Virus record (IMG/VR): IMGVR_UViG_3300037113_000024 | Span: 685 to 64,684 of that record | Reading direction: 5' to 3' (one strand) | DNA from: a virus | Taxonomy: Duplodnaviria > Caudoviricetes | Length of the DNA: 64,000 nucleotides | Shown here: piece by piece, positions 1-60,049 of the stretch | Layout: the number at the start of each line of letters is the position of its first letter | Numbering within the stretch: the first letter of the stretch is position 1 | Made by a program: the position numbers and the translations under genes | The notes under the pieces: generated by a model | What the model saw: only the letters and a program-made list of their open reading frames with translations | The model's database searches: none | Told to the model about the DNA's origin: nothing

Positions 1-1
1 G

Positions 2-148
2 GGAGGCGATGCGTCAGCGTGGCGACACCTTCAGATCGAGCAGCGGCCTTGCCCGTCCAACCCGTTGGGGTCTGACACTACCTACGACCTGTGCCCTGGC
101 TGCGCCGGGATGCTAGAGCACTTCCTGGGGATCGGGGTGAAGACATGA
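2..148 (+). CDS. 3' end of small Cys-containing phage protein (truncated by window start)
   Basis: Open frame ...WRHLQIEQRP...YDLCPGCAGMLEHFLGIGVKT*; its TGA overlaps the polymerase ATG (ATGA at 145-148). Confidence 0.55.
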   Translation, partial: GGDASAWRHLQIEQRPCPSNPLGSDTTYDLCPGCAGMLEHFLGIGVKT

Positions 149-2847
149 GCGACTGGGATGACGAGCAGTACATCGCCTTCGACTTTGAAACGTCGGGCAA
201 GCTGCCCGAGTACGGGCTTCAACCGTGGCGGCTGAGGACGGGCGAGGCATGGATCACGTCGCTCGCCTGGGTCTACCGGGAGAACGGCGAGACGAAGCGT
301 GGAGGAACCATTGACCCAGACCCGCTCTACATCGCCTGCTTTCTGGCGTGGGCTATCGAGAGTGGGCGCACCTTGGTTGGTTGGAACGTCCAGTTTGATA
401 TCCAGTGGTTACTGGCCCTTGGTCTGGACAACCACGTCCACCAGTGCCGGTTCGTTGACGGCATGCTGGTGTGGCGTCACCTTGAGATAGAGCCCGAGTA
501 CGAAACCACGCGGGTGTCGAAGAAGTCCTACAGCCTGAAGACAGCGGTGCGCGAGCACCTGCCTCAGTACGCCGGCTACGAGGATCAGATCGACTTCCAC
601 TCGACCGATCCCGCCGACCGCGTGAAGCTGCACACCTACAACATCCAAGACTGCCTGTTCACGCTGCGCATCACGAAGAAGCTCTACGAACAACTTAAGG
701 CGCGCCAGCGTCAGGCCATGTGGATCGAGGCCCAGTGCCTCGCCATGGTTGCGAAGGCGAACGTGGAAGGGATGCTGCTCGACACGACCTACGCGCAGTG
801 GTTGAGCAAGGTCAATCGGGATGTGGCGGCGAAGAAACTTGCGCTCCTTGCTCCCCACGGCGTGACAGAAGCGGTGGTGCGTTCGCCCAAGCAGCTTCAG
901 GTGCTCATGTACGATGTGTGGAAGCTGCCGGTCCTGAAGGAAACGACAAGCGCCAAGACGGGCACCGTGTCCCGCTCGACCGACAAGACGGTGCTGCACG
1001 AGTTGGCGTTCATCGACGTGCGGGCGAAGGAGCTACGCGCCTACCGCGAGGCGCTGAACAACGACACCAAGTTTGCGATCACTCCAATCAGGAGCGTGCA
1101 GTATTGCGGCGACGGCATGTCGCACCCCAACGCCCGCGTGTTCGGCACCTACAGCGGGCGCATGACCTACTCGTCCAAGCAGGGCAAGGGCGTGACCGAG
1201 CGGCCGACCGGCTTCGCCCTGCACCAAATGCCGCGCATGTCCGAGAAGCAGCCCTTGGACTTCCGCGCCCAGGTGATTGCACCCAAAGGCTACACCATTG
1301 TTGAGTTCGACGCCGCCGGCCAAGAGTTCCGTTGGATGGCCATGGCGGCGAACGACCTAACCATGTTGCAGTTGTGCCAGCCTGGGGAGGATGCGCACAG
1401 CTTCATGGGCGCGAAGATCGCGCGCATGGACTACAAGGAGTTTTTGCGGCGACTGGCGCTGAAGGAGCAGCACATCAAGGACGGGCGTCAGATGGGCAAG
1501 ATCGCCAACCTCTGCATCGCCAAGGGCGAGATCGTGTTGACAGATCGCGGACCTTGCAGTATCGAACTGGTCAAGTCTGATGATCTGGTGTGGGACGGCG
1601 AGGCGTTCGTCGCCCATGACGGCGTGTCGTTCAGTGGTGAACGCTGGACGATTGACAATGATGGTGTGATGGCGACGCCAAGTCATCAGGTTCTCGTGAG
1701 CGGAGCGTGGACGGCGCATGACGAAACACAGCGTATGGGCTGGGCCATTGATCGAGCGTGCGCCCCCAGGCACGCGCTACGGATCGTGGGCGGTATTGCC
1801 CGGCGAGCCGTTCGCGAAGCATGGCGCGATCTACGTGCGGGCGCGCTGCGCTTGTGGGATCGAGCGAGAAGCCAACCTGCGGTTCATGGAGACCGGACGA
1901 TCAACCATGTGCAAGGGCTGCGCTACGCGCTCGCGACATCAGCGGAGTGGCGACCTGATCGTGACCGACGCGGCGACGCGACGCTTGCAGAAGCGAGCCA
2001 GCGCATGGTTTCAACGATGTTGGAACCCGAAGGATCGCTCATGGCGAAACTATGGGGCGCGTGGGATCGAGTGTCGGTTCTCATCAGTGGCGGAAGCCGT
2101 GGCATACATCAAACAAACTCTGCCGCATCCCACGTACCTCAAACTCGACATCGACCGGCGAGACAACGAGGGTCATTACGAGCCTGGAAACTTGCGCTTG
2201 GTTACGCGCAAAGTGAACCTCGCAAATCGGCGCAAGTCGAAACCTACGATATCGTAAACTGTGGCCCGCGAACGCGCTATGCCATCAATGGTAGGATCGT
2301 TCACAATTCCCTTCAGTATCGCACGAGCGCGAAGAAGCTGCGGGTGGTGGCGCGCGTGGACTACGACGTGCCCATGACCATGACGGACGCCTACTTCATC
2401 CACGACCTCTACCGCACCACCTATTGGCGCGTGCCTGAGTATTGGGATCGCCAGATCGCGCTCACGATGCGGCGTCAGTGGGTTGAGACGTTCGCCGGCC
2501 GGCGAGTTCAAGTGAAAGGAGATTGGAACGGCAAGAACGGTTGGAGCATGGGTTCTACTGCAATCAACTACCGCATCCAAGGCACGGGCGCGGATCAGAA
2601 GTACCTCGCCATGATGATGATGCGTGACTATATACACACCATTGGTGCTCGCTTTTTTCTTGACTTGCACGACGGCATCTATCTATTGGTGCCCGACCGA
2701 CTGGCAAAGAGCGCCGCCAAGCACATCAAGAAGGAACTCGATAACCTTCCCTACGCACAAACATGGAACTTCATACCGCCTATTCCCCTGCCTTGGGATT
2801 GTAAGATGGGCAAGACATGGGGCGGCCTGAAAGAGTTCAAACCCTGA
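145..2847 (+). CDS. polA: Family A DNA polymerase with 3'-5' exonuclease domain, intein-containing
   Basis: ExoI DFETSG, GWNVQFD, YNIQD; TYSGRM; motif A EFDAAGQEFR; motif B GKIANL/SLQY split by intein; NYRIQGTGAD; motif C LHDGI. Start moved to ATG 145 because of ATGA coupling. Confidence 0.95.
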   Translation: MSDWDDEQYIAFDFETSGKLPEYGLQPWRLRTGEAWITSLAWVYRENGETKRGGTIDPDPLYIACFLAWAIESGRTLVGWNVQFDIQWLLALGLDNHVHQCRFVDGMLVWRHLEIEPEYETTRVSKKSYSLKTAVREHLPQYAGYEDQIDFHSTDPADRVKLHTYNIQDCLFTLRITKKLYEQLKARQRQAMWIEAQCLAMVAKANVEGMLLDTTYAQWLSKVNRDVAAKKLALLAPHGVTEAVVRSPKQLQVLMYDVWKLPVLKETTSAKTGTVSRSTDKTVLHELAFIDVRAKELRAYREALNNDTKFAITPIRSVQYCGDGMSHPNARVFGTYSGRMTYSSKQGKGVTERPTGFALHQMPRMSEKQPLDFRAQVIAPKGYTIVEFDAAGQEFRWMAMAANDLTMLQLCQPGEDAHSFMGAKIARMDYKEFLRRLALKEQHIKDGRQMGKIANLCIAKGEIVLTDRGPCSIELVKSDDLVWDGEAFVAHDGVSFSGERWTIDNDGVMATPSHQVLVSGAWTAHDETQRMGWAIDRACAPRHALRIVGGIARRAVREAWRDLRAGALRLWDRARSQPAVHGDRTINHVQGLRYALATSAEWRPDRDRRGDATLAEASQRMVSTMLEPEGSLMAKLWGAWDRVSVLISGGSRGIHQTNSAASHVPQTRHRPARQRGSLRAWKLALGYAQSEPRKSAQVETYDIVNCGPRTRYAINGRIVHNSLQYRTSAKKLRVVARVDYDVPMTMTDAYFIHDLYRTTYWRVPEYWDRQIALTMRRQWVETFAGRRVQVKGDWNGKNGWSMGSTAINYRIQGTGADQKYLAMMMMRDYIHTIGARFFLDLHDGIYLLVPDRLAKSAAKHIKKELDNLPYAQTWNFIPPIPLPWDCKMGKTWGGLKEFKP
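1513..2307 (+). mobile_element. Intein (265 aa) in polymerase motif B
   Basis: Block A CIAKGEIVLTDRG, block B ATPSHQV (TxxH), block F/G TYDIVNCG...INGRIVHN followed by Ser+1; removal restores KIANL-SLQY. Confidence 0.93.
1718..2257 (+). CDS. HNH-type (His-Me finger) homing endonuclease nested out of frame in the intein
   Basis: CACG...CKGC Zn motif; QRCWNPKDRSWRNYGARGI; IDRRDNEGHYEPGNLRLVTRKVNLANRR; own ATG with GGAG at 1702-1705. Confidence 0.85.
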   Translation: MTKHSVWAGPLIERAPPGTRYGSWAVLPGEPFAKHGAIYVRARCACGIEREANLRFMETGRSTMCKGCATRSRHQRSGDLIVTDAATRRLQKRASAWFQRCWNPKDRSWRNYGARGIECRFSSVAEAVAYIKQTLPHPTYLKLDIDRRDNEGHYEPGNLRLVTRKVNLANRRKSKPTIS

Positions 2848-2861
2848 CCAAGGAGTATCAG

Positions 2862-3083
2862 ATGAAAGCGTTCCTCTACCACACCAGCAGCGGCCGGATG
2901 TACGAGGTGGTCAAAGTCGAGAACGGCGAGATCACGCTGAAGAACTCGATGGCCACGTTCACCGACACCTACGACAAGGAAAAGTTCAAGCTACAGGGCT
3001 ACATCCGCGTCAAGGGCGAGGACGAGGACGAGGCGCGCGCCGCCGCGGAAGCCCTGGTCGCGGCTGAAGCCGAGGCCGAGTGA
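2862..3083 (+). CDS. Small hypothetical protein
   Basis: AAGGAG RBS then ATG 2862; acidic C-terminus. Confidence 0.75.
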   Translation: MKAFLYHTSSGRMYEVVKVENGEITLKNSMATFTDTYDKEKFKLQGYIRVKGEDEDEARAAAEALVAAEAEAE

Positions 3084-3481
3084 GCGGCAAGCGATCAACC
3101 AGCGCACGGGCTAGGCTGCGTTGGTTGTTGGTGCTGGTGTTGCGTGAGAGTATGCGGTGGTCGTTCGAGATGATAGGCGCTGAGATCGGCGTCACCGAAA
3201 GACGAGCGCGCAAGGTCTACAATCGCGCAGCGGAGAGATACAATGCCGAGCAGTCCTGGCTATGTGAGGAATTACAAGCAAGAGTACACGACGGCCAAAA
3301 GCCGCGGCGAAGACGGCACCGGGCACAACTCGGGCAGCGCGGAGCGCGACCGTCTGAGGCGAGCGGCGCTGAAGCGGGGCATGGTGAAGAAGGGCCAGGA
3401 CTTGGCGCACAAGGTGGCGCTCTCTGGGAAAGGCCCGAACACACTGGCGAACGCCCGCGCCGAGACTGTGCACGACAATAG
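3080..3481 (+). CDS. Putative sigma70 region-4-like HTH protein
   Basis: LVLRESMRWSFEMIGAEIGVTERRARKVYNRA resembles the r4 HTH; GTGA coupling with upstream gene; 3' half overlaps next ORF. Confidence 0.5.
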   Translation: MSGKRSTSARARLRWLLVLVLRESMRWSFEMIGAEIGVTERRARKVYNRAAERYNAEQSWLCEELQARVHDGQKPRRRRHRAQLGQRGARPSEASGAEAGHGEEGPGLGAQGGALWERPEHTGERPRRDCARQ

Positions 3482-3548
3482 GAGCTACGCCCGCAATGCG
3501 GACGGCTCGATGAAGGACAAGGTAGACCACCACAAGAAAGCGAAGTGA
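3243..3548 (+). CDS. Small HNH endonuclease
   Basis: RNYKQEY...QDLAHKVALSGKGPNTLANARAETVHDNRS, typical of small phage HNH proteins. Confidence 0.75.
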   Translation: MPSSPGYVRNYKQEYTTAKSRGEDGTGHNSGSAERDRLRRAALKRGMVKKGQDLAHKVALSGKGPNTLANARAETVHDNRSYARNADGSMKDKVDHHKKAK

Positions 3549-3904
3549 TGAGCAACCAACCCGACCACAGTGGACCGCTTGACGGGCCGACCCTACGCAA
3601 ACGTTCTGACCTTATGCTCGCCAACATGACCGAGCTTATGTACTCGGCGCAGCAGATGGCCTACACCGCAGGCTCCATGGACGCCTGCGATCTGCTCCGC
3701 GTCCTGCTGACGCATGTTGAGAAGAAGGGCAAGTTCGAGACGCCGCCCGCACAACCGCTCGACGTGTTCACGCTCAAGTACGTGATCAACGCGCTGCACA
3801 GTTCTATCCAGAACAACGTCAACAACATTGTTGTGACGGACGTGGTGGTCGTGCCGGGGTCGCCGGGTACGGAGGGACCGCCGCCGGGCACCAAGCTTTC
3901 CTAA
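3545..3904 (+). CDS. Hypothetical protein
   Basis: Coupled ORF with phage-like codon usage. Confidence 0.7.
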   Translation: MMSNQPDHSGPLDGPTLRKRSDLMLANMTELMYSAQQMAYTAGSMDACDLLRVLLTHVEKKGKFETPPAQPLDVFTLKYVINALHSSIQNNVNNIVVTDVVVVPGSPGTEGPPPGTKLS

Positions 3905-4026
3905 TCGGTAGGGGCAGGGTGGGAGGCCGTCGCCATCGACAAGCGCCCCCGTTCGCCGCGATCCTGTAACCGAACCGATCTAGGCCCCGCCGATGGCGGC
4001 GGGGCACCCGACCAAGGATAAGAGCC

Positions 4027-4764
4027 ATGTGGGCGTACCGACTGGGCAAGGCTGACGACAGCCTGCGGCTGCTCAAGCCATTCTCCGCTCTGCGCAAGTG
4101 GCTGCTTCGGCAGCACGAGGTGTGCGGGGACGAGACAGAAACATTGTTCCAACTGGACAACGATCTGAAGGTAGCCCGCAACATGGCGCGCGCCCTTGGT
4201 TGGGACACGTCCCTGGCTTGCCCAGAGCAATGTTTCTCCATGCCTGGACCCGACAGCACGCTGTACGGGTTCGTGATCACCCAAGCCACCAGCGGCCAGC
4301 GCTACGTCGTGTCGCCCGTCGAACTCGCCTACCTTACGAACGAGGTGGACTGGGACGCGCGCATCAACGAGGCTGAGGTGCGCAAGGTGCGGGGAGAACT
4401 CAGCGGAACAGTAGTTGACCGACCGCCGCTGCGCGTGGGCGAGTGGAAGCGCTCGGCCAAGGGCAACATGTGGACCACCATCAACGGGGCTAACTGCACG
4501 GTGTTCGCCAAGAACGATGGCACTGGCTATTGCGCCGTCATCATGAACCCCACGAGCAGCGGCCTGAAGGTCTACACCAGGGCGTTCGAGACAGAGTTGG
4601 AGTGTGCGAACTATGTCATTCAAGCCGACAACTTCTACAACCTTATCCGCGGGTGGCTCGGCAGTCCCGGCGAAGCCAAGTCCACCGATCTCGACAGCCC
4701 CTTCGCAGACATTGACTGGGAAGGAGAGGACGAACGAGGGCTCGATCCCGATATCCCGTTCTGA
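4027..4764 (+). CDS. Hypothetical protein with acidic SSB-like C-terminal tail (DPDIPF)
   Basis: AAGGA RBS; 245-aa ORF. Confidence 0.75.
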   Translation: MWAYRLGKADDSLRLLKPFSALRKWLLRQHEVCGDETETLFQLDNDLKVARNMARALGWDTSLACPEQCFSMPGPDSTLYGFVITQATSGQRYVVSPVELAYLTNEVDWDARINEAEVRKVRGELSGTVVDRPPLRVGEWKRSAKGNMWTTINGANCTVFAKNDGTGYCAVIMNPTSSGLKVYTRAFETELECANYVIQADNFYNLIRGWLGSPGEAKSTDLDSPFADIDWEGEDERGLDPDIPF

Positions 4765-4969
4765 CGCGGTATCAAACAAACTCGCCAACGATCTCGACCG
4801 TTACCTCGCCAATTACCGGACCACGGACAAGAAGAACTTGACCGAGGGTGAGGTGATCGTGGGCCTTGGGTTCCTCCTGGGCCTGCATCTGAAGGACCCC
4901 GAGCGGGTGAAGGCTTGGCTCGCCCAAGTCGGCATCGCGGGGCTTAGCGCCGTGAAGGATAAACCATGA
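4712..4969 (+). CDS. Probable small hypothetical protein, start uncertain
   Basis: Fills the gap 4765-4969 with coding-like codons; stop overlaps next ATG; only an in-frame TTG at 4712 is nearby. Confidence 0.4.
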   Translation: MTGKERTNEGSIPISRSDAVSNKLANDLDRYLANYRTTDKKNLTEGEVIVGLGFLLGLHLKDPERVKAWLAQVGIAGLSAVKDKP

Positions 4970-5598
4970 AAAACATTATGGTAGACTTAGAGACGTTTGG
5001 AACGAACCCGTTCTCCATGATCCTCAGCATTGGTGCGGTCTACTTCGACCCAACCAAGGTGGGCGACGCGGCGATCAAGAGTTCGTTCTACGTCACCATC
5101 GACCCCATCGCTTCGGGCAAGGCGGGCTTCATGACCGACATGTCCACGATCTGCTGGTGGCTCGACCCGGCCCGCCGGCCGGCGTGGGACGACTTCCTGA
5201 GCGTCGCCCACTTTGAACCGGCGGACGCCCTTCAGGGCTTCAGCCTGTGGATCGGGGGCCTGTTCGATCTGAGCCAGGACCCGACCGCCCACGACGATCT
5301 CGACTTCCCGAAGGACCCGGCGAAGCGCGAGACGTTCGAGCCCTCCACCCAGGTCGCGATGTGGGGCAATGGGCCGGCGTTCGACAACGAAATCCTGCGC
5401 AACGCCTACACGCGAATGAACATGGATGCGCCGTGGAAGCACTTCGGCGACCGCTGCTTCCGCACCATGAAGAACCTGGGCGGCGCGAGCAACCTCGCGC
5501 CCCCGCACGAGGGCCACATCCACAACGCCTTGGTTGACGCCCGTCAGCAAGCGAAGTGGCTCTGCAACATCATCAACACCCTGCACGTCACTATCTAA
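4966..5598 (+). CDS. DEDDh 3'-5' exo(ribo)nuclease (Rv2179c / exonuclease VIII-like domain)
   Basis: MVDLET, ILSIGAV, WGNGPAFD, RCFRT, HNALVDA motifs. Confidence 0.88.
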   Translation: MKNIMVDLETFGTNPFSMILSIGAVYFDPTKVGDAAIKSSFYVTIDPIASGKAGFMTDMSTICWWLDPARRPAWDDFLSVAHFEPADALQGFSLWIGGLFDLSQDPTAHDDLDFPKDPAKRETFEPSTQVAMWGNGPAFDNEILRNAYTRMNMDAPWKHFGDRCFRTMKNLGGASNLAPPHEGHIHNALVDARQQAKWLCNIINTLHVTI

Positions 5599-58497: not shown

Positions 58498-59622
58498 ATG
58501 CAAACTCTCGATAGCGTCGGCGTAGCCGAGTTCATTAAGCATGTCGCGATTAAGCTCGATCAGCCTGTCATGGTTGTCGGCACGTTCGGTTCGGCCAAGA
58601 GCGCCGTAACCAACCAAGTCGCGAGCGACCTTGACAGCCCCGAAGCGCTCGACGCGCTCCTGGGCGACCGCAACCAGTCTTTGATACCGACCGTATCAGA
58701 CGACGGCGACACGCTCTACACCAAGTTCACCGGGACGATACTCTGCGACGTTCGCCTCGCTCAATACGAGAGCGTCGATCTCCGCGGCTTCCCCGGCGTC
58801 AACAAGGCGACGGGCATGACGGTGTGGCATGCGCCGAGCACGCTTCCCTTCGTCGGCAACGACGACTTCCCCGACGACAAGATCATCATCCTGTTCCTCG
58901 ATGAGATCACGTCGGCGACGCCGCCTGTCTTCAGCGTGGCCTACCAGTTGGTCAACGAGCGCCGCGTCGGCGAGCATGTGCTGAAGCCCAACGTTCGCGT
59001 GGTCTGCGCGGGCAACCTCGAAAGCGACAAGGGCGTCGTCAACCGCATGCCCATGCCGTTGTGCAATCGCCTGACCTGGGTGCAGCAGGTCGTCAACCAC
59101 AAGTCGTGGGCCGACTGGGCGCAGAGCGTCGGCATCACGCCGGTGGTCATCGCGTTCATCCACTTCAAGCCCAACCTACTCATGACCTACGACCCGGCCA
59201 AGGCCGAGAAGGTGGTCGCGACGCTGCGCACTTGGGAGAAGGCGGCTGCGTACTTGGTTGACGACATGCCCGAAGAGATCAAGTGGGCGGCGTGCGCCGG
59301 CTCGATTGGTCAGGGACCGGCGACCGAGTTGCGCGCCTTCATTGATATCTGGCAGAAGGTGATCCCGCCCAAGCAGATCGCTGCCGACCCCGAGGGCACG
59401 CCGGTGCCGACCGAGGCGAGCATGCGATATGCGACTGCTGTATCTATCTCGGGAGCAATGTCGGGCAAGCTGCTCGCGCCGCTCTATCAGTACCTCAAGC
59501 GTCTGCCGCCTGAGTTCATCGTGCTGGCGTGGCAGTTGGCGCAGAAGCGCGACCAGCGGCTCTACAACACGCCCGAGTTTATGGATTTCACGAAAAGATA
59601 TAGAAGCATATTCAATATGTAA
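58498..59622 (+). CDS. MoxR-like AAA+ ATPase
   Basis: Walker A GTFGSAKS, DLRGFP, Walker B LFLDE, CAGN, PLCNRL, TLRTWE; contains site 9 at 58682-58698. Confidence 0.88.
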   Translation: MQTLDSVGVAEFIKHVAIKLDQPVMVVGTFGSAKSAVTNQVASDLDSPEALDALLGDRNQSLIPTVSDDGDTLYTKFTGTILCDVRLAQYESVDLRGFPGVNKATGMTVWHAPSTLPFVGNDDFPDDKIIILFLDEITSATPPVFSVAYQLVNERRVGEHVLKPNVRVVCAGNLESDKGVVNRMPMPLCNRLTWVQQVVNHKSWADWAQSVGITPVVIAFIHFKPNLLMTYDPAKAEKVVATLRTWEKAAAYLVDDMPEEIKWAACAGSIGQGPATELRAFIDIWQKVIPPKQIAADPEGTPVPTEASMRYATAVSISGAMSGKLLAPLYQYLKRLPPEFIVLAWQLAQKRDQRLYNTPEFMDFTKRYRSIFNM

Positions 59623-59647: not shown

Positions 59648-60049
59648 ATGCGTAATGATCCGATACGTAGAACGTATCTAGTCTGGTTCGCAATGGTGGG
59701 ACGTTGCACTAAGCGTCACCACAAAAGCTATCCAGACTACGGCGGGCGAGGCATCCGCGTGTGCAAGAGGTGGCTAATATTTAGCAACTTCCTTGAGGAC
59801 ATGGGGCCATGCCCGTTGGGGTTGACACTCGAACGTCGCTGCAACGGCCGAGGGTACTGGCCGTCGAACTGTCGGTGGGCGACGCGCGCTGAGCAGGCGC
59901 GCAACTATCGCCGCAACGTGTGGATCACATGGCGCGGCGAAACCAAATGCGTGAAGGACTGGAACACGCACTTCGGCCTCAAGCCGAACGTGCTCGCGTC
60001 ACGTCTCAAGCGACGAACTGTGCGTCAAGTCTTTTGTGAGCTTGACTAA
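59648..60049 (+). CDS. Free-standing HNH-type homing endonuclease
   Basis: RC...SYPDYGGRGIRVCKRW..F.NFLEDMG...TLERR.N..GY.PSNCRWATRAEQARN. Confidence 0.88.
   Translation: MRNDPIRRTYLVWFAMVGRCTKRHHKSYPDYGGRGIRVCKRWLIFSNFLEDMGPCPLGLTLERRCNGRGYWPSNCRWATRAEQARNYRRNVWITWRGETKCVKDWNTHFGLKPNVLASRLKRRTVRQVFCELD

What the first reader, a model, noticed from the sequence alone, without database searches (positions are those of the whole stretch)
1513..2307. PolA intein whose homing endonuclease is overprinted in a different reading frame
Seen: a complete class-1 intein (Cys1, TxxH, HN/Ser+1) sits in polymerase motif B. Its in-frame central ~180 aa are Arg/Ala-rich with no LAGLIDADG or HNH motif. The +1 frame (1718-2257) encodes a full HNH-type endonuclease with a Zn-binding N-terminus, its own ATG and a GGAG. 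Both frames are stop-free over 540 nt, and the nested ORF lies between splicing blocks B and F. Established: intein endonucleases are normally in-frame domains. Inference: a free-standing endonuclease gene invaded a mini-intein out of frame, and the intein splices out the resulting junk peptide. This would uncouple nuclease expression from polymerase synthesis. I cannot check how much precedent this architecture has.
Basis: partly seen in the sequence, partly recalled or inferred. Interest (0 to 1): 0.85.

Follow-up and report, generated by a model that had tools for sequence, protein, structure and literature searches.

The report
Polymerase intein with out-of-frame nuclease gene
A self-splicing protein insert (intein) in this phage's DNA polymerase gene carries its likely mobility nuclease as a separate gene in a shifted reading frame of the same DNA; the layout is real and shared by many phages, but it was already described in 2025-26.

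Summary
A 265-aa class-1 intein (1513-2307) sits in motif B of a phage family-A DNA polymerase. A 179-aa HNH-type nuclease ORF (1718-2257) lies inside it in the +1 frame, and the polymerase frame stays open.

It is not an assembly error. A second viral contig and contigs of three other runs show no indel.

Selection acts on both frames:
- The third codon position of the nuclease frame is the least conserved in 666 of 666 pairs.
- The polymerase frame is open in 70 of 71 distinct elements, against 1.5 expected.

In three censuses of viral contigs, no intein-linked copy was in frame. Both +1 and +2 offsets occur, alongside mini-inteins and split forms. 43 of 48 related polymerases have an empty site.

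Translation, splicing and cleavage are inferred, not shown.

Out-of-frame intein nucleases were reported in 2025-26 preprints for other hosts and nuclease types. My four literature searches found no paper on this polymerase family. This scan has noted the same layout before on other DNA (55 notes, at least 48 genomes).

Verdict: a new member of a known, rare kind, of moderate interest.

The parts
145..1512 (+). N-extein of the family-A DNA polymerase: exonuclease-like N-terminus and polymerase motifs up to the first half of motif B (...GRQMGKIANL)
   Evidence: ORF list. Pfam DNA_pol_A E=1.7e-31 and NCBIfam PolA models. Relatives at 38-99% identity.
1513..1752 (+). Intein N-terminal splicing region (residues 1-80): Cys1, block B T55-P-S-H58
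   Evidence: Invariant C1, T55 and H58 in 56 aligned inteins. Model pLDDT 95-97. Foldseek top hits are inteins and other HINT domains, probability 1.00.
1702..1705 (+). Shine-Dalgarno-like GGAG, 12 nt upstream of the nested ATG
   Evidence: Sequence. Across the family, 73 of 124 first ATGs have GGAG/GAGG/AGGA 5-17 nt upstream, against 11% at random positions.
1718..2257 (+). Nested 179-aa HNH-type (His-Me finger, possibly PacI-like) endonuclease gene in frame +1 relative to the polymerase
   Evidence: phrog_374 E=3.2e-22. 74 homologous proteins at 35-79% identity. GC3 0.69 in this frame against 0.54 in the polymerase frame. Third-position variability in 666 of 666 pairs. Model pLDDT 91.3. Best structural match PacI, Z 5.7.
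1753..2229 (+). Read-through 'linker' of the intein (residues 81-239) in the polymerase frame: Arg/Ala-rich, low-confidence structure, kept stop-free
   Evidence: pLDDT mostly 47-69. 31% Arg+Ala. Poorly conserved in 56 inteins. This frame is open in 70 of 71 family members against 1.5 expected.
2230..2307 (+). Intein C-terminal splicing region (residues 240-265): block F (ETYDIVNCGPR, Asp246) and block G (IVHN)
   Evidence: Invariant D246 and N265. pLDDT 96-97. Exact boundary against empty alleles.
2308..2847 (+). C-extein of the polymerase, starting with the Ser+1 nucleophile (SLQYRTSAKK..., second half of motif B) and including the stop codon

Best explanation
This is a mobile class-1 intein in motif B of a phage family-A DNA polymerase. 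Its endonuclease slot holds a separate, overlapping gene rather than an in-frame domain.

The polymerase is translated straight through the insert. The two ends of the insert (about 80 + 26 residues) fold into a HINT splicing domain. That domain excises the whole 265-aa insert, including a 159-residue Arg/Ala-rich read-through peptide with no role of its own. Splicing restores motif B (GKIANL-SLQY).

From the same mRNA, ribosomes start independently at GGAG...ATG (1702/1718) in the +1 frame. They make a free 179-aa HNH-type nuclease. In mixed infections this nuclease cuts intein-less polymerase alleles at or near the empty site, and repair copies the intein in (homing).

Shown here: the anatomy; purifying selection on the nuclease frame; selection for an open polymerase frame; family-wide conservation; empty alleles in relatives; the predicted folds.

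Inferred: independent translation, splicing competence, nuclease activity and its target.
For: Anatomy and exact boundaries.

The nested ORF is a real protein family:
- phrog_374 at E=3.2e-22.
- 74 of 120 candidates at E<=0.001 in the protein collection.
- Invariant motif residues.
- Model pLDDT 91.3.
- Best structural match is the HNH enzyme PacI: Z 5.7, rmsd 3.0, 80 residues aligned.

The coding signal switches frame:
- GC3 is 0.69 in the nested frame and 0.54 in the polymerase frame, against 0.73-0.85 in the exteins.
- Mean nucleotide identity at nested codon positions 1/2/3 is 0.58/0.64/0.37. Position 3 is lowest in 666 of 666 pairs.

The polymerase frame is kept open by selection:
- Open in 70 of 71 distinct elements, against 1.5 expected from synonymous reshuffling. 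The third frame is open in 0 of 71.

The intein fold:
- Residues 1-80 and 240-265 have pLDDT 95-97. The middle is about 50, apart from one isolated helix.
- Foldseek top hits are mini-inteins and other HINT domains, probability 1.00 and E about 8e-3.

Not an error:
- L004 differs at 6 of 2703 nt with no indel.
- Contigs from runs X2, X3 and X4 cover 1400-2420 without indels.

Family censuses found no in-frame copy:
- HNH-seeded, 97 hits: 64 at +1 and 15 at +2 with an open polymerase frame.
- IntN-seeded, 85 hits: 55 at +1, 3 at +2 and 23 mini-inteins.
- Third set, 147 distinct hits: 62 at +1, 1 at +2 and 8 split.

Mobility: 43 of 48 scoreable relatives have an empty site and 5 have intein plus HNH.

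Own start: an SD-like 4-mer precedes 73 of 124 first ATGs, against 11% of random positions.
Against: - No direct evidence of translation, splicing or cleavage. The only RNA-library signal is one 217-nt contig (2061-2277) in run X19, which could be carried-over DNA.
- Pfam and NCBIfam intein and HNH models do not hit either frame.
- Structural matches are modest. The nuclease has no Foldseek hit at E<=0.001 and PacI scores only Z 5.7. The intein Foldseek E-values are about 8e-3.
- The canonical first His of the HNH motif is an Arg here (D146-R147). Activity would depend on H153 or Y154, as with the Tyr of PacI. That is an inference.
- The GGAG-ATG spacing of 12 nt is on the long side.
- Among the best 150 library representatives, two proteins carry the HNH in the same frame as one intein half (P0189 with IntN, P0204 with IntC). 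So 'never in frame' is not absolute, and I could not see their DNA.
- The censuses cover the best-scoring 80 loci per search, not all 487 or more than 560 hits.
Confidence: 0.8

Rival explanations
1. The HNH is not translated from its own start. It is reached by programmed ribosomal frameshifting from the polymerase frame, giving an N-extein-IntN-HNH fusion in a fraction of translation events.
For: The nested ORF begins inside the polymerase ORF on the same mRNA. Two library proteins show the HNH fused in frame to one intein half (P0189, P0204). In the window the SD spacing is long, at 12 nt.
Against: Both +1 and +2 offsets occur in the family, so both +1 and -1 shifting would be needed. A stop in the nested frame 18 nt before the ATG leaves a very short window for a shift, and I saw no X_XXY_YYZ slippery heptamer when I read 1700-1770 by eye. 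SD-like motifs are enriched before nested ATGs, 73 of 124 against 11%.
Confidence: 0.06
2. The nested gene is real but no longer serves homing in this phage. It may be a decaying relic, or it may have been co-opted, for example for competition between phages or as a DNA-binding factor.
For: The homing cycle predicts decay. Some relatives have broken HNH frames (L059, L062; L165). Mini-inteins derived by deletion are common. The canonical catalytic His is replaced by Arg.
Against: The window's copy is intact and keeps all residues that are invariant in 48 homologues. The family shows strong purifying selection. Its distribution among polymerase alleles is sporadic, 5 of 48.
Confidence: 0.1
3. 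Artefact: two compensating frameshift errors in the assembly hide an ordinary in-frame HNH intein, or the nested ORF is a chance open frame in GC-rich DNA.
For: The DNA is 62% G+C, where long spurious ORFs occur. Only contigs, not raw reads, could be laid.
Against: The identical frame layout appears in an independent viral contig (6 substitutions, no indel) and in contigs of runs X2-X4. The same layout appears in every intein-linked copy of the three censuses, including 37-50% G+C phages. It also appears in the three phage records checked: EBPR siphovirus 2 and the cultured Salmonella and E. coli phages. Homology is at E=3.2e-22.
Confidence: 0.01
4. The insert is a group I intron or another RNA-level element that carries a free-standing endonuclease gene, not an intein.
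For: Phage polymerase genes are known to carry intron-encoded HNH genes (PMC3428280, search listing only).
Against: The polymerase frame is open through the insert under selection. The insert ends carry intein blocks and a predicted HINT fold. Its length is exactly 265 codons relative to empty alleles. No Rfam family matches in 1-5000 at E<=0.1.
Confidence: 0.01

Closest known systems
Actinobacteriophage inteins with a homing endonuclease in a separate reading frame (endonuclease VII-like gene in 'frame 3'). Gosselin, Arsenault and Gogarten, bioRxiv 10.1101/2025.01.02.630785; passages read.
   Same: Same architecture: a class-1 or class-3 intein whose in-frame middle has no recognisable structure. 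A nuclease gene on the same strand in another frame lies between the splicing blocks. The authors propose origin from a free-standing endonuclease and continued mobility. Endonuclease VII is also a His-Me finger enzyme, and the window's ORF weakly hits phrog_1035 'endonuclease VII' (E=1e-5).
   Different: Their hosts are actinobacteriophages. Their host proteins are listed as DNA polymerase (DNA polymerase III alpha appears in their host-gene list), minor capsid, terminase and thymidylate synthase. Here the host gene is a family-A polymerase of an uncultivated phage, and the nuclease is of the YG(G/A)RGI...DRxDN-GHYEPGN type. I could not see their supplementary tables, so I cannot say whether the families overlap.
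Cyanobacterial DnaX intein with an out-of-frame LAGLIDADG endonuclease. Phillips, DeSimone and Gogarten, bioRxiv 10.64898/2026.09.14.751524; abstract and two sections read. It cites Gorbalenya 1998 'non-canonical inteins', which is not held here.
   Same: The ORF overlaps a disordered in-frame linker. The endonuclease frame has low dN/dS and the polymerase frame shows a relaxed signal. Shine-Dalgarno motifs precede the ORF. Full, mini and empty alleles coexist. The authors propose secondary invasion of a mini-intein.
   Different: The host is cellular (cyanobacteria). The nuclease is LAGLIDADG rather than HNH-type, the host gene is dnaX, and only a +2 offset is reported.
Fractured genes: split inteins flanking a free-standing endonuclease gene. 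Dassa et al. 2009, PMC2677866; search listing and start of the abstract only.
   Same: A free-standing endonuclease gene lies between the intein halves. Relatives of the window's intein show exactly this form (L007a, L047 and L151; eight loci).
   Different: In the window the polymerase frame is uninterrupted, so the intein is contiguous and cis-splicing is expected.
[quoted passage not shown]
   Same: Same splicing blocks, the same position of the endonuclease slot, and the same presumed homing role.
   Different: In those inteins the nuclease is a domain of the intein polypeptide. Here it is a separate product, and no in-frame copy was seen in the censuses.
'Intein-containing DNA polymerase precursor' of Salmonella phage vB_SenS-Ent1 (gp37) and other Guernseyvirinae, including E. 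coli phage fEg-Eco19 (GenBank annotations).
   Same: The intein splicing ends are homologous and the nested HNH is homologous (33% identity). The insert is also in motif B, and the HNH is also out of frame.
   Different: The offset is +2, not +1. The insertion point is three residues upstream (GKA|CELGLGY). The Ent1 record annotates the intein as 'encoding splicing domains' without a nuclease. I found no paper describing its nested gene.
ShiLan insertion in a mycobacteriophage methylase with a hidden out-of-frame HNH. Arsenault et al. 2025, PMC11855218; abstract and Discussion read.
   Same: An out-of-frame HNH gene lies inside an insertion that keeps the host gene's frame open.
   Different: That insertion has no splicing domains and is thought to remain in the protein. 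Here intein blocks and a HINT fold are present.

Membership tests
Class-1 intein (HINT domain) | Cys/Ser/Thr at position 1 and a nucleophile (Cys/Ser/Thr) at +1 of the C-extein | tested here: met
   Cys1 at 1513 and Ser+1 at 2308. C1 is invariant in 56 aligned inteins.
Class-1 intein (HINT domain) | Block B TxxH, block F Asp, block G His-Asn at the C-terminus | tested here: met
   T55, H58, D246, H264 and N265 are present. T55, H58, D246 and N265 are invariant in 56 inteins.
Class-1 intein (HINT domain) | HINT fold formed by the N- and C-terminal parts | tested here: met
   In the AlphaFold2 model, residues 1-80 and 240-265 have pLDDT 95-97. Foldseek top rows are mini-inteins, bacterial intein-like and hedgehog domains at probability 0.96-1.00, but E is only about 8e-3 over 75-90 columns. 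Pfam and NCBIfam intein models do not hit.
Class-1 intein (HINT domain) | Precise in-frame insertion into a conserved site of a host protein, absent from homologues | tested here: met
   The gap is 795 nt in the window's lineage and 0 nt in 43 of 48 scoreable relatives, whose motif B reads GK.ANL|SLQYR.
Class-1 intein (HINT domain) | Protein splicing activity | not testable with these tools
   Inferred from the conserved catalytic residues and from the fact that motif B of an essential polymerase is interrupted.
HNH / His-Me finger endonuclease | Sequence membership in an HNH family | tested here: met
   phrog_374 'HNH endonuclease' at E=3.2e-22, plus 7 further nuclease PHROGs. Pfam and NCBIfam give no hit.
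HNH / His-Me finger endonuclease | Beta-beta-alpha-metal fold | tested here: inconclusive
   The model has a strand-strand-helix at residues 143-171. The best VIA-align match is PacI: Z 5.7, rmsd 3.0, 80 residues aligned, model residues 80-174. Foldseek's best is the Gme HNH nicking enzyme at E=0.21.
HNH / His-Me finger endonuclease | General-base His at the end of strand 1 (the first H of H-N-H) | tested here: inconclusive
   By my recalled comparison with the HNH_3 motif, the expected position carries D146-R147. H153 and Y154 in the following loop are invariant in the 48 aligned homologues. In free-standing relatives the His varies while the Tyr stays. PacI uses a loop Tyr instead of His (PMC5714182, passages). 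The residue equivalence was not checked in 3D.
HNH / His-Me finger endonuclease | Structural and metal-binding Asn residues | tested here: met
   N158 and N170 are invariant and N167 is at least 90% conserved. Their assignment to roles is inference.
[quoted passage not shown] | Endonuclease ORF on the same strand, in another frame, within the intein, with the host frame open throughout | tested here: met
   Family-wide evidence.
[quoted passage not shown] | Purifying selection in the endonuclease frame and a relaxed, unstructured in-frame peptide | tested here: met
Homing endonuclease (functional class) | Sporadic presence among otherwise homologous alleles | tested here: met
   5 of 48 scoreable polymerase relatives carry intein plus HNH and 43 are empty.
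Homing endonuclease (functional class) | Cleaves the intein-less allele near the insertion site | not testable with these tools
   Not tested.
Fractured gene / split intein with free-standing endonuclease | Host gene split into two ORFs, each ending or starting with an intein half | tested here: not met
   The window's polymerase frame is open from 145 to 2847. Relatives L007a, L047 and L151, and eight loci, do show the split form.

The most novel reading that the evidence does not exclude
In this large phage intein family the out-of-frame position of the nuclease gene is an obligatory, selected design, not a frozen accident.
- No in-frame copy appears among the intein-linked copies sampled.
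- Two different frame offsets are each inherited stably within intein clades.
- The family resolves only to mini-inteins (by in-frame deletion) or to split inteins, never to a fused domain.

This would mean one of two things. Either a fused HNH is incompatible with splicing or cleavage, or separate translation is needed to set nuclease dose and timing independently of the polymerase.
Probability: 0.25. Interest if true: 0.7.

Novelty: new member of a known kind. Interest (0 to 1): 0.45.

Why it matters
- It shows that dual-coded, non-canonical inteins are not rare curiosities of actinophages and cyanobacteria. They form a widespread family in phage family-A polymerases, including cultured Salmonella and E. 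coli phages.
- Standard annotation either hides the nuclease gene or labels the intein as lacking an endonuclease.
- The family displays full, mini, split and empty states side by side. That makes the 'splicing first, endonuclease invades later' model of intein origin testable, along with the homing cycle.
- Cultured E. coli phages carry the same layout, so translation, splicing and homing can be tested in ordinary laboratory strains.
- For this particular window the result is confirmatory. The same layout has been reported in preprints and noted repeatedly by this scan.

Tried and rejected
- **Pfam and NCBIfam** found no intein or HNH model in either frame. I relied on PHROGs, alignments and predicted folds instead.
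- **blastn of 1-2900 against phage records** found nothing.
- **Foldseek on the nuclease model** gave no hit at E<=0.001.
- **A profile search of PDB sequences** gave only chance-level rows.
- **A search for longer, fused proteins (315-2000 aa)** scored none of 439 candidates. The tool itself calls this weak evidence.
- **The full-library profile search** then showed two partial exceptions, P0189 and P0204. It also showed P0137, where a polymerase N-terminus runs into the HNH without an IntN. I looked for their DNA in viral contigs. Only 38-60% identical relatives turned up, so their contexts stay unknown.
- **Rfam** gave no match in 1-5000, which argues against an intron.
- **Frameshift sites:** I considered a frameshift-fusion reading. 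I saw no slippery heptamer when reading 1700-1770 by eye, but ran no formal scan.
- **Direct repeat:** a 16-nt imperfect repeat brackets the nested ORF (1712-1727 and 2228-2243). My rough estimate is that about one such match is expected by chance in this GC-rich stretch, so I give it no weight.
- **Expression:** the RNA-library contig of X19 (2061-2277) is not evidence of transcription on its own. RNA runs X21 and X22 held next to none of the words.
- **dN/dS:** I ran no true per-frame dN/dS. The closest relatives are either nearly identical (L004) or at most 65% identical, so I used codon-position identity instead.
- **Tree:** the FastTree tree of 136 splicing domains has few columns and many unresolved forks. 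The counts of state changes are therefore rough.
- **Literature:** my searches for a paper on this polymerase family were made, and none was found. Gorbalenya 1998 is not held. I did not ask for supplementary files. The supplementary tables of the 2025 preprint could show overlap with this family.

Full report
**What is there.**
The window is all but the first 684 bases of a 64,684-base viral record that CheckV rates complete. It has 62% G+C. Its first large gene (145-2847, + strand) is a family-A DNA polymerase. Pfam DNA_pol_A matches in two stretches at E=1.7e-31, and several NCBIfam PolA models also match.

Between GRQMGKIANL and SLQYRTSAKK lies a 795-nt insert (1513-2307). It starts with Cys, carries TPSH at residues 55-58 and an Asp in ETYDIV at residue 246. 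It ends in VHN and is followed by Ser.

A second ORF (1718-2257, 179 aa) runs through the middle of the insert in the +1 frame. GGAG lies 12 nt before its ATG, and a stop in its own frame lies just upstream.

**Is the nested ORF a gene?**
- It matches phrog_374 'HNH endonuclease' at E=3.2e-22 and seven other nuclease PHROGs. Pfam and NCBIfam are silent.
- The large protein collection holds 74 relatives at E<=0.001 among 120 candidates, at 35-79% identity.
- An alignment of 48 of them shows invariant C44, C65, R93, R100, C101, Y112, G113, R115, G116, D146, R147, N150, H153, Y154, G157, N158, R160 and N170.
- With that alignment AlphaFold2 gives a confident model, mean pLDDT 91.3.
- Foldseek finds no PDB match at E<=0.001.
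- The exhaustive VIA-align search puts the HNH restriction enzyme PacI first: Z 5.7, rmsd 3.0 over 80 residues, model residues 80-174. That is a modest score.
- By my recalled comparison with the HNH_3 motif, the position of the canonical first His carries Arg (D146-R147).
- PacI also lacks that His and uses a loop Tyr (PMC5714182, passages).
- The family's invariant Y154 could play that part. This is inference only.

**Which frame is under selection?**
In the exteins, GC3 in the polymerase frame is 0.73-0.85. Across 1718-2257 it drops to 0.54, while the nested frame has 0.69.

I built codon alignments of 82 nested-frame sequences. Mean nucleotide identity at nested codon positions 1, 2 and 3 is 0.58, 0.64 and 0.37. 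Position 3 is the least conserved in 666 of 666 pairs with 40-95% amino-acid identity. The nuclease frame is therefore the one read as protein by selection.

The polymerase frame must nevertheless stay open. I reshuffled synonymous codons of each HNH gene. The polymerase frame stayed open in 3% of shuffles for the window. Summed over 71 distinct elements, 1.5 open frames were expected and 70 were observed. The third frame is open in 0 of 71.

**Is the insert an intein?**
Fifty-six in-frame translations of related inserts align well over the first 80 or so residues and the last 25, and poorly in between. C1, G29, G37, G42, T55, H58, D246 and N265 are invariant.

In the model of the window's 265 residues, residues 1-80 and 240-265 have pLDDT 95-97. 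The middle is mostly 47-69, apart from one isolated helix at residues 88-120.

Foldseek's top rows are all mini-inteins, bacterial intein-like domains or hedgehog autoprocessing domains. Probabilities are 0.96-1.00, with E about 8e-3 because only 75-90 columns align.

The middle (residues 81-239) is 31% Arg+Ala, against 16% in the exteins.

Of 51 related polymerases in viral contigs, 48 could be scored:
- 43 have an uninterrupted site (gap 0 nt, motif GK.ANL|SLQYR).
- 5 carry intein plus HNH (gaps of 795-993 nt).

The boundaries are therefore exact and the element is sporadic among alleles. No Rfam family matches in 1-5000.

**Is it an error?**
- A viral contig from another data set (L004) differs at 6 of 2703 positions of the gene, with no indel.
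- Contigs of three further coded runs (X2, X3, X4; labelled peat metagenomes) cover 1400-2420 with at most one substitution and no indel.
- These are contigs, not raw reads.
- X3 and X4 share the L004 variant, and the tool flags their near-identical contigs as a possible source of this DNA, so they may not be independent of each other or of the window.
- An RNA-library contig (X19) covers 2061-2277. It does not prove transcription.

**The family.**
tblastn of the nested protein against 50,697 phage records finds 370 records. Of these, 146 are Salmonella phages and 15 are Escherichia phages. Among the records listed, most Salmonella and Escherichia hits lie under genes annotated as DNA polymerase or 'intein-containing DNA polymerase precursor'.

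In EBPR siphovirus 2, Salmonella phage vB_SenS-Ent1 and E. coli phage fEg-Eco19, the HNH match is at offset +2 within the polymerase CDS.

I built profiles of the intein N part, the intein C part and the HNH, then scanned three sets of viral-contig loci in all three forward frames. No in-frame copy turned up in any set.

| Census | Hits examined | Offset +1, open polymerase frame | Offset +2, open polymerase frame | Other |
|---|---|---|---|---|
| HNH-seeded (best 80 of 487 relatives plus 9 earlier loci) | 97 HNH hits | 64 | 15 | 4 with the C part not found; 1 with the intein halves in different frames; 1 with stops in the polymerase frame; 12 with no intein N part |
| IntN-seeded (best 80 of more than 560) | 85 IntN hits | 55 | 3 | 2 cut at a contig end; 1 with a closed polymerase frame; 23 mini-inteins of 106-195 aa without HNH; 1 with the halves in different frames |
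| Third set | 147 distinct HNH hits | 62 | 1 | 8 split forms using three frames; 76 with no intein |

- Of the 12 hits with no intein N part in the first census, 11 are free-standing ORFs and 1 is cut by a contig end.
- The three sets overlap and include the window's own record. Pooled from the first two, they hold 136 distinct splicing domains: 101 at +1, 15 at +2 and 20 mini.
- The inteins sit at several sites of motif B and at other polymerase motifs.

**Exceptions.**
The full-library profile search found 129,034 representatives at E<=0.001. Among the best 150 listed:
- P0189 has the intein N part and the HNH in one frame.
- P0204 has the HNH, the intein C part and the C-extein in one frame.
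- P0137 has a polymerase N-terminus running into the HNH with no intein N part.

I could not obtain their DNA. 'Never in frame' is thus a strong tendency in the sampled contigs, not a law.

**History.**
On a FastTree tree of the 136 splicing domains, the +1/+2 label needs only 2 changes. The tree has few columns and many open forks. The mini-intein label needs 17 changes, close to the shuffled expectation of 18.9. The offset is therefore a lineage trait, and mini-inteins arise repeatedly.

I inspected three mini-inteins at the nucleotide level. Each is a different in-frame deletion of an HNH-bearing relative that is otherwise nearly identical. In one case the 555-nt segment is flanked by a 9-nt direct repeat.

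Free-standing relatives of the HNH are common. One lies in this same genome at 59648-60049. This fits an old invasion of a mini-intein by a free-standing gene, followed by vertical and horizontal spread, decay to mini-inteins and occasional splitting.

**Translation.**
In 129 distinct elements, 124 have an ATG between the upstream stop and the HNH core. Of these first ATGs, 73 have GGAG, GAGG or AGGA 5-17 nt upstream, against 11% at random positions of the same genes. This favours independent initiation over frameshifting, which would have to work in both directions. It is still indirect.

**Comparison with what is known.**
Out-of-frame endonuclease genes inside inteins have been reported in two places.
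- Actinobacteriophages carry an endonuclease VII-like gene in 'frame 3'. The authors say this had not been reported before (bioRxiv 10.1101/2025.01.02.630785, passages).
- The cyanobacterial DnaX intein carries a LAGLIDADG gene in a +2 ORF, with the idea traced to Gorbalenya 1998 (bioRxiv 10.64898/2026.09.14.751524).

A related non-intein case is the ShiLan insertion (PMC11855218).

My four literature searches found no paper on this arrangement in family-A polymerases or in Salmonella and E. coli phages.

The scan's own notes hold 55 findings in at least 48 genomes with these words. Several have follow-ups that reached the same reading. I consulted them after my own tests, and they agree.

**Verdict.**
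The window holds a typical, intact member of a large family of phage polymerase inteins with an overlapping, out-of-frame HNH-type gene. It is a new member of a known, recently described kind.

Interest is moderate for this window. The family as a whole is still largely unpublished, and it could be tested experimentally in E. coli phages.

Noticed in passing
window 59648-60049 (+): A second, free-standing 133-aa relative of the nested nuclease (YGGRGI...NCRWAT type) matches the nested-family profile at E=4e-13. It follows a 374-aa ORF ending at 59622. It lacks the His of the GHYEP motif but keeps the Tyr.
   Followed up: partly
L007 1125-1906; L047 2730-3518; L151 2501-3463; also L238, L252, L255, L258, L266, L295, L325, L333: Relatives in which the polymerase frame has several stops across the HNH region. 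In L007 and the eight later loci, the two intein halves also lie in different frames, so three frames are used. This is the 'fractured gene' or split-intein form with a free-standing HNH between the halves.
   Followed up: partly
L101 vs L095/L100; L118 and L135 vs L122: Three mini-inteins are different in-frame deletions of nearly identical HNH-bearing inteins. In L095 and L100 the 555-nt segment missing from L101 is flanked by a 9-nt direct repeat (ATCATCAGC), which suggests deletion by microhomology.
   Followed up: partly
L009 74-922 and 1382-2341; L160 2501-3277 and 3812-4705; L104; L153/L154: Some polymerase genes carry two inteins of this family at different sites. Both may have an out-of-frame HNH, or one may be a mini-intein. 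L153 and L154 differ in whether the second intein has the HNH.
   Followed up: no
proteins P0189, P0204, P0137 (library representatives): P0189 has the intein N part and the HNH in one frame. P0204 has the HNH, the intein C part and the C-extein in one frame. P0137 is a polymerase N-terminus (motif A and the start of motif B) running straight into an HNH with no intein N part. They may be real single-junction fusions or frameshifted contigs.
   Followed up: partly
window 1712-1727 and 2228-2243: A 16-nt imperfect direct repeat (14 of 16 identical) brackets the nested ORF. The first copy spans its ATG and the second lies 12 nt before its stop. The spacing is 516 nt, a multiple of three. It is probably chance in GC-rich DNA.
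   Followed up: no
window 2061-2277: A 217-nt contig from a metatranscriptome library (coded run X19) matches with no difference. It covers the 3' part of the nested gene and block F. The tool warns that DNA can be present in such libraries.
   Followed up: no
proteins P0078 (834 aa), P0101 (642 aa), P0083 (503 aa): Long free-standing proteins made of two to four tandem copies of the whole HNH module, each with its Cys-rich N-terminal part.
   Followed up: no
loci (for example L058 2739-3662, L053 212-1009, L009 1382-2341, L192): The same intein family occupies several insertion points. There are at least five registers within motif B, which is my reading of the junctions listed. There is a site in motif A (DSAQIE|CR) and a site before NFQNLP. 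L192 sits one residue downstream of the window's site.
   Followed up: no
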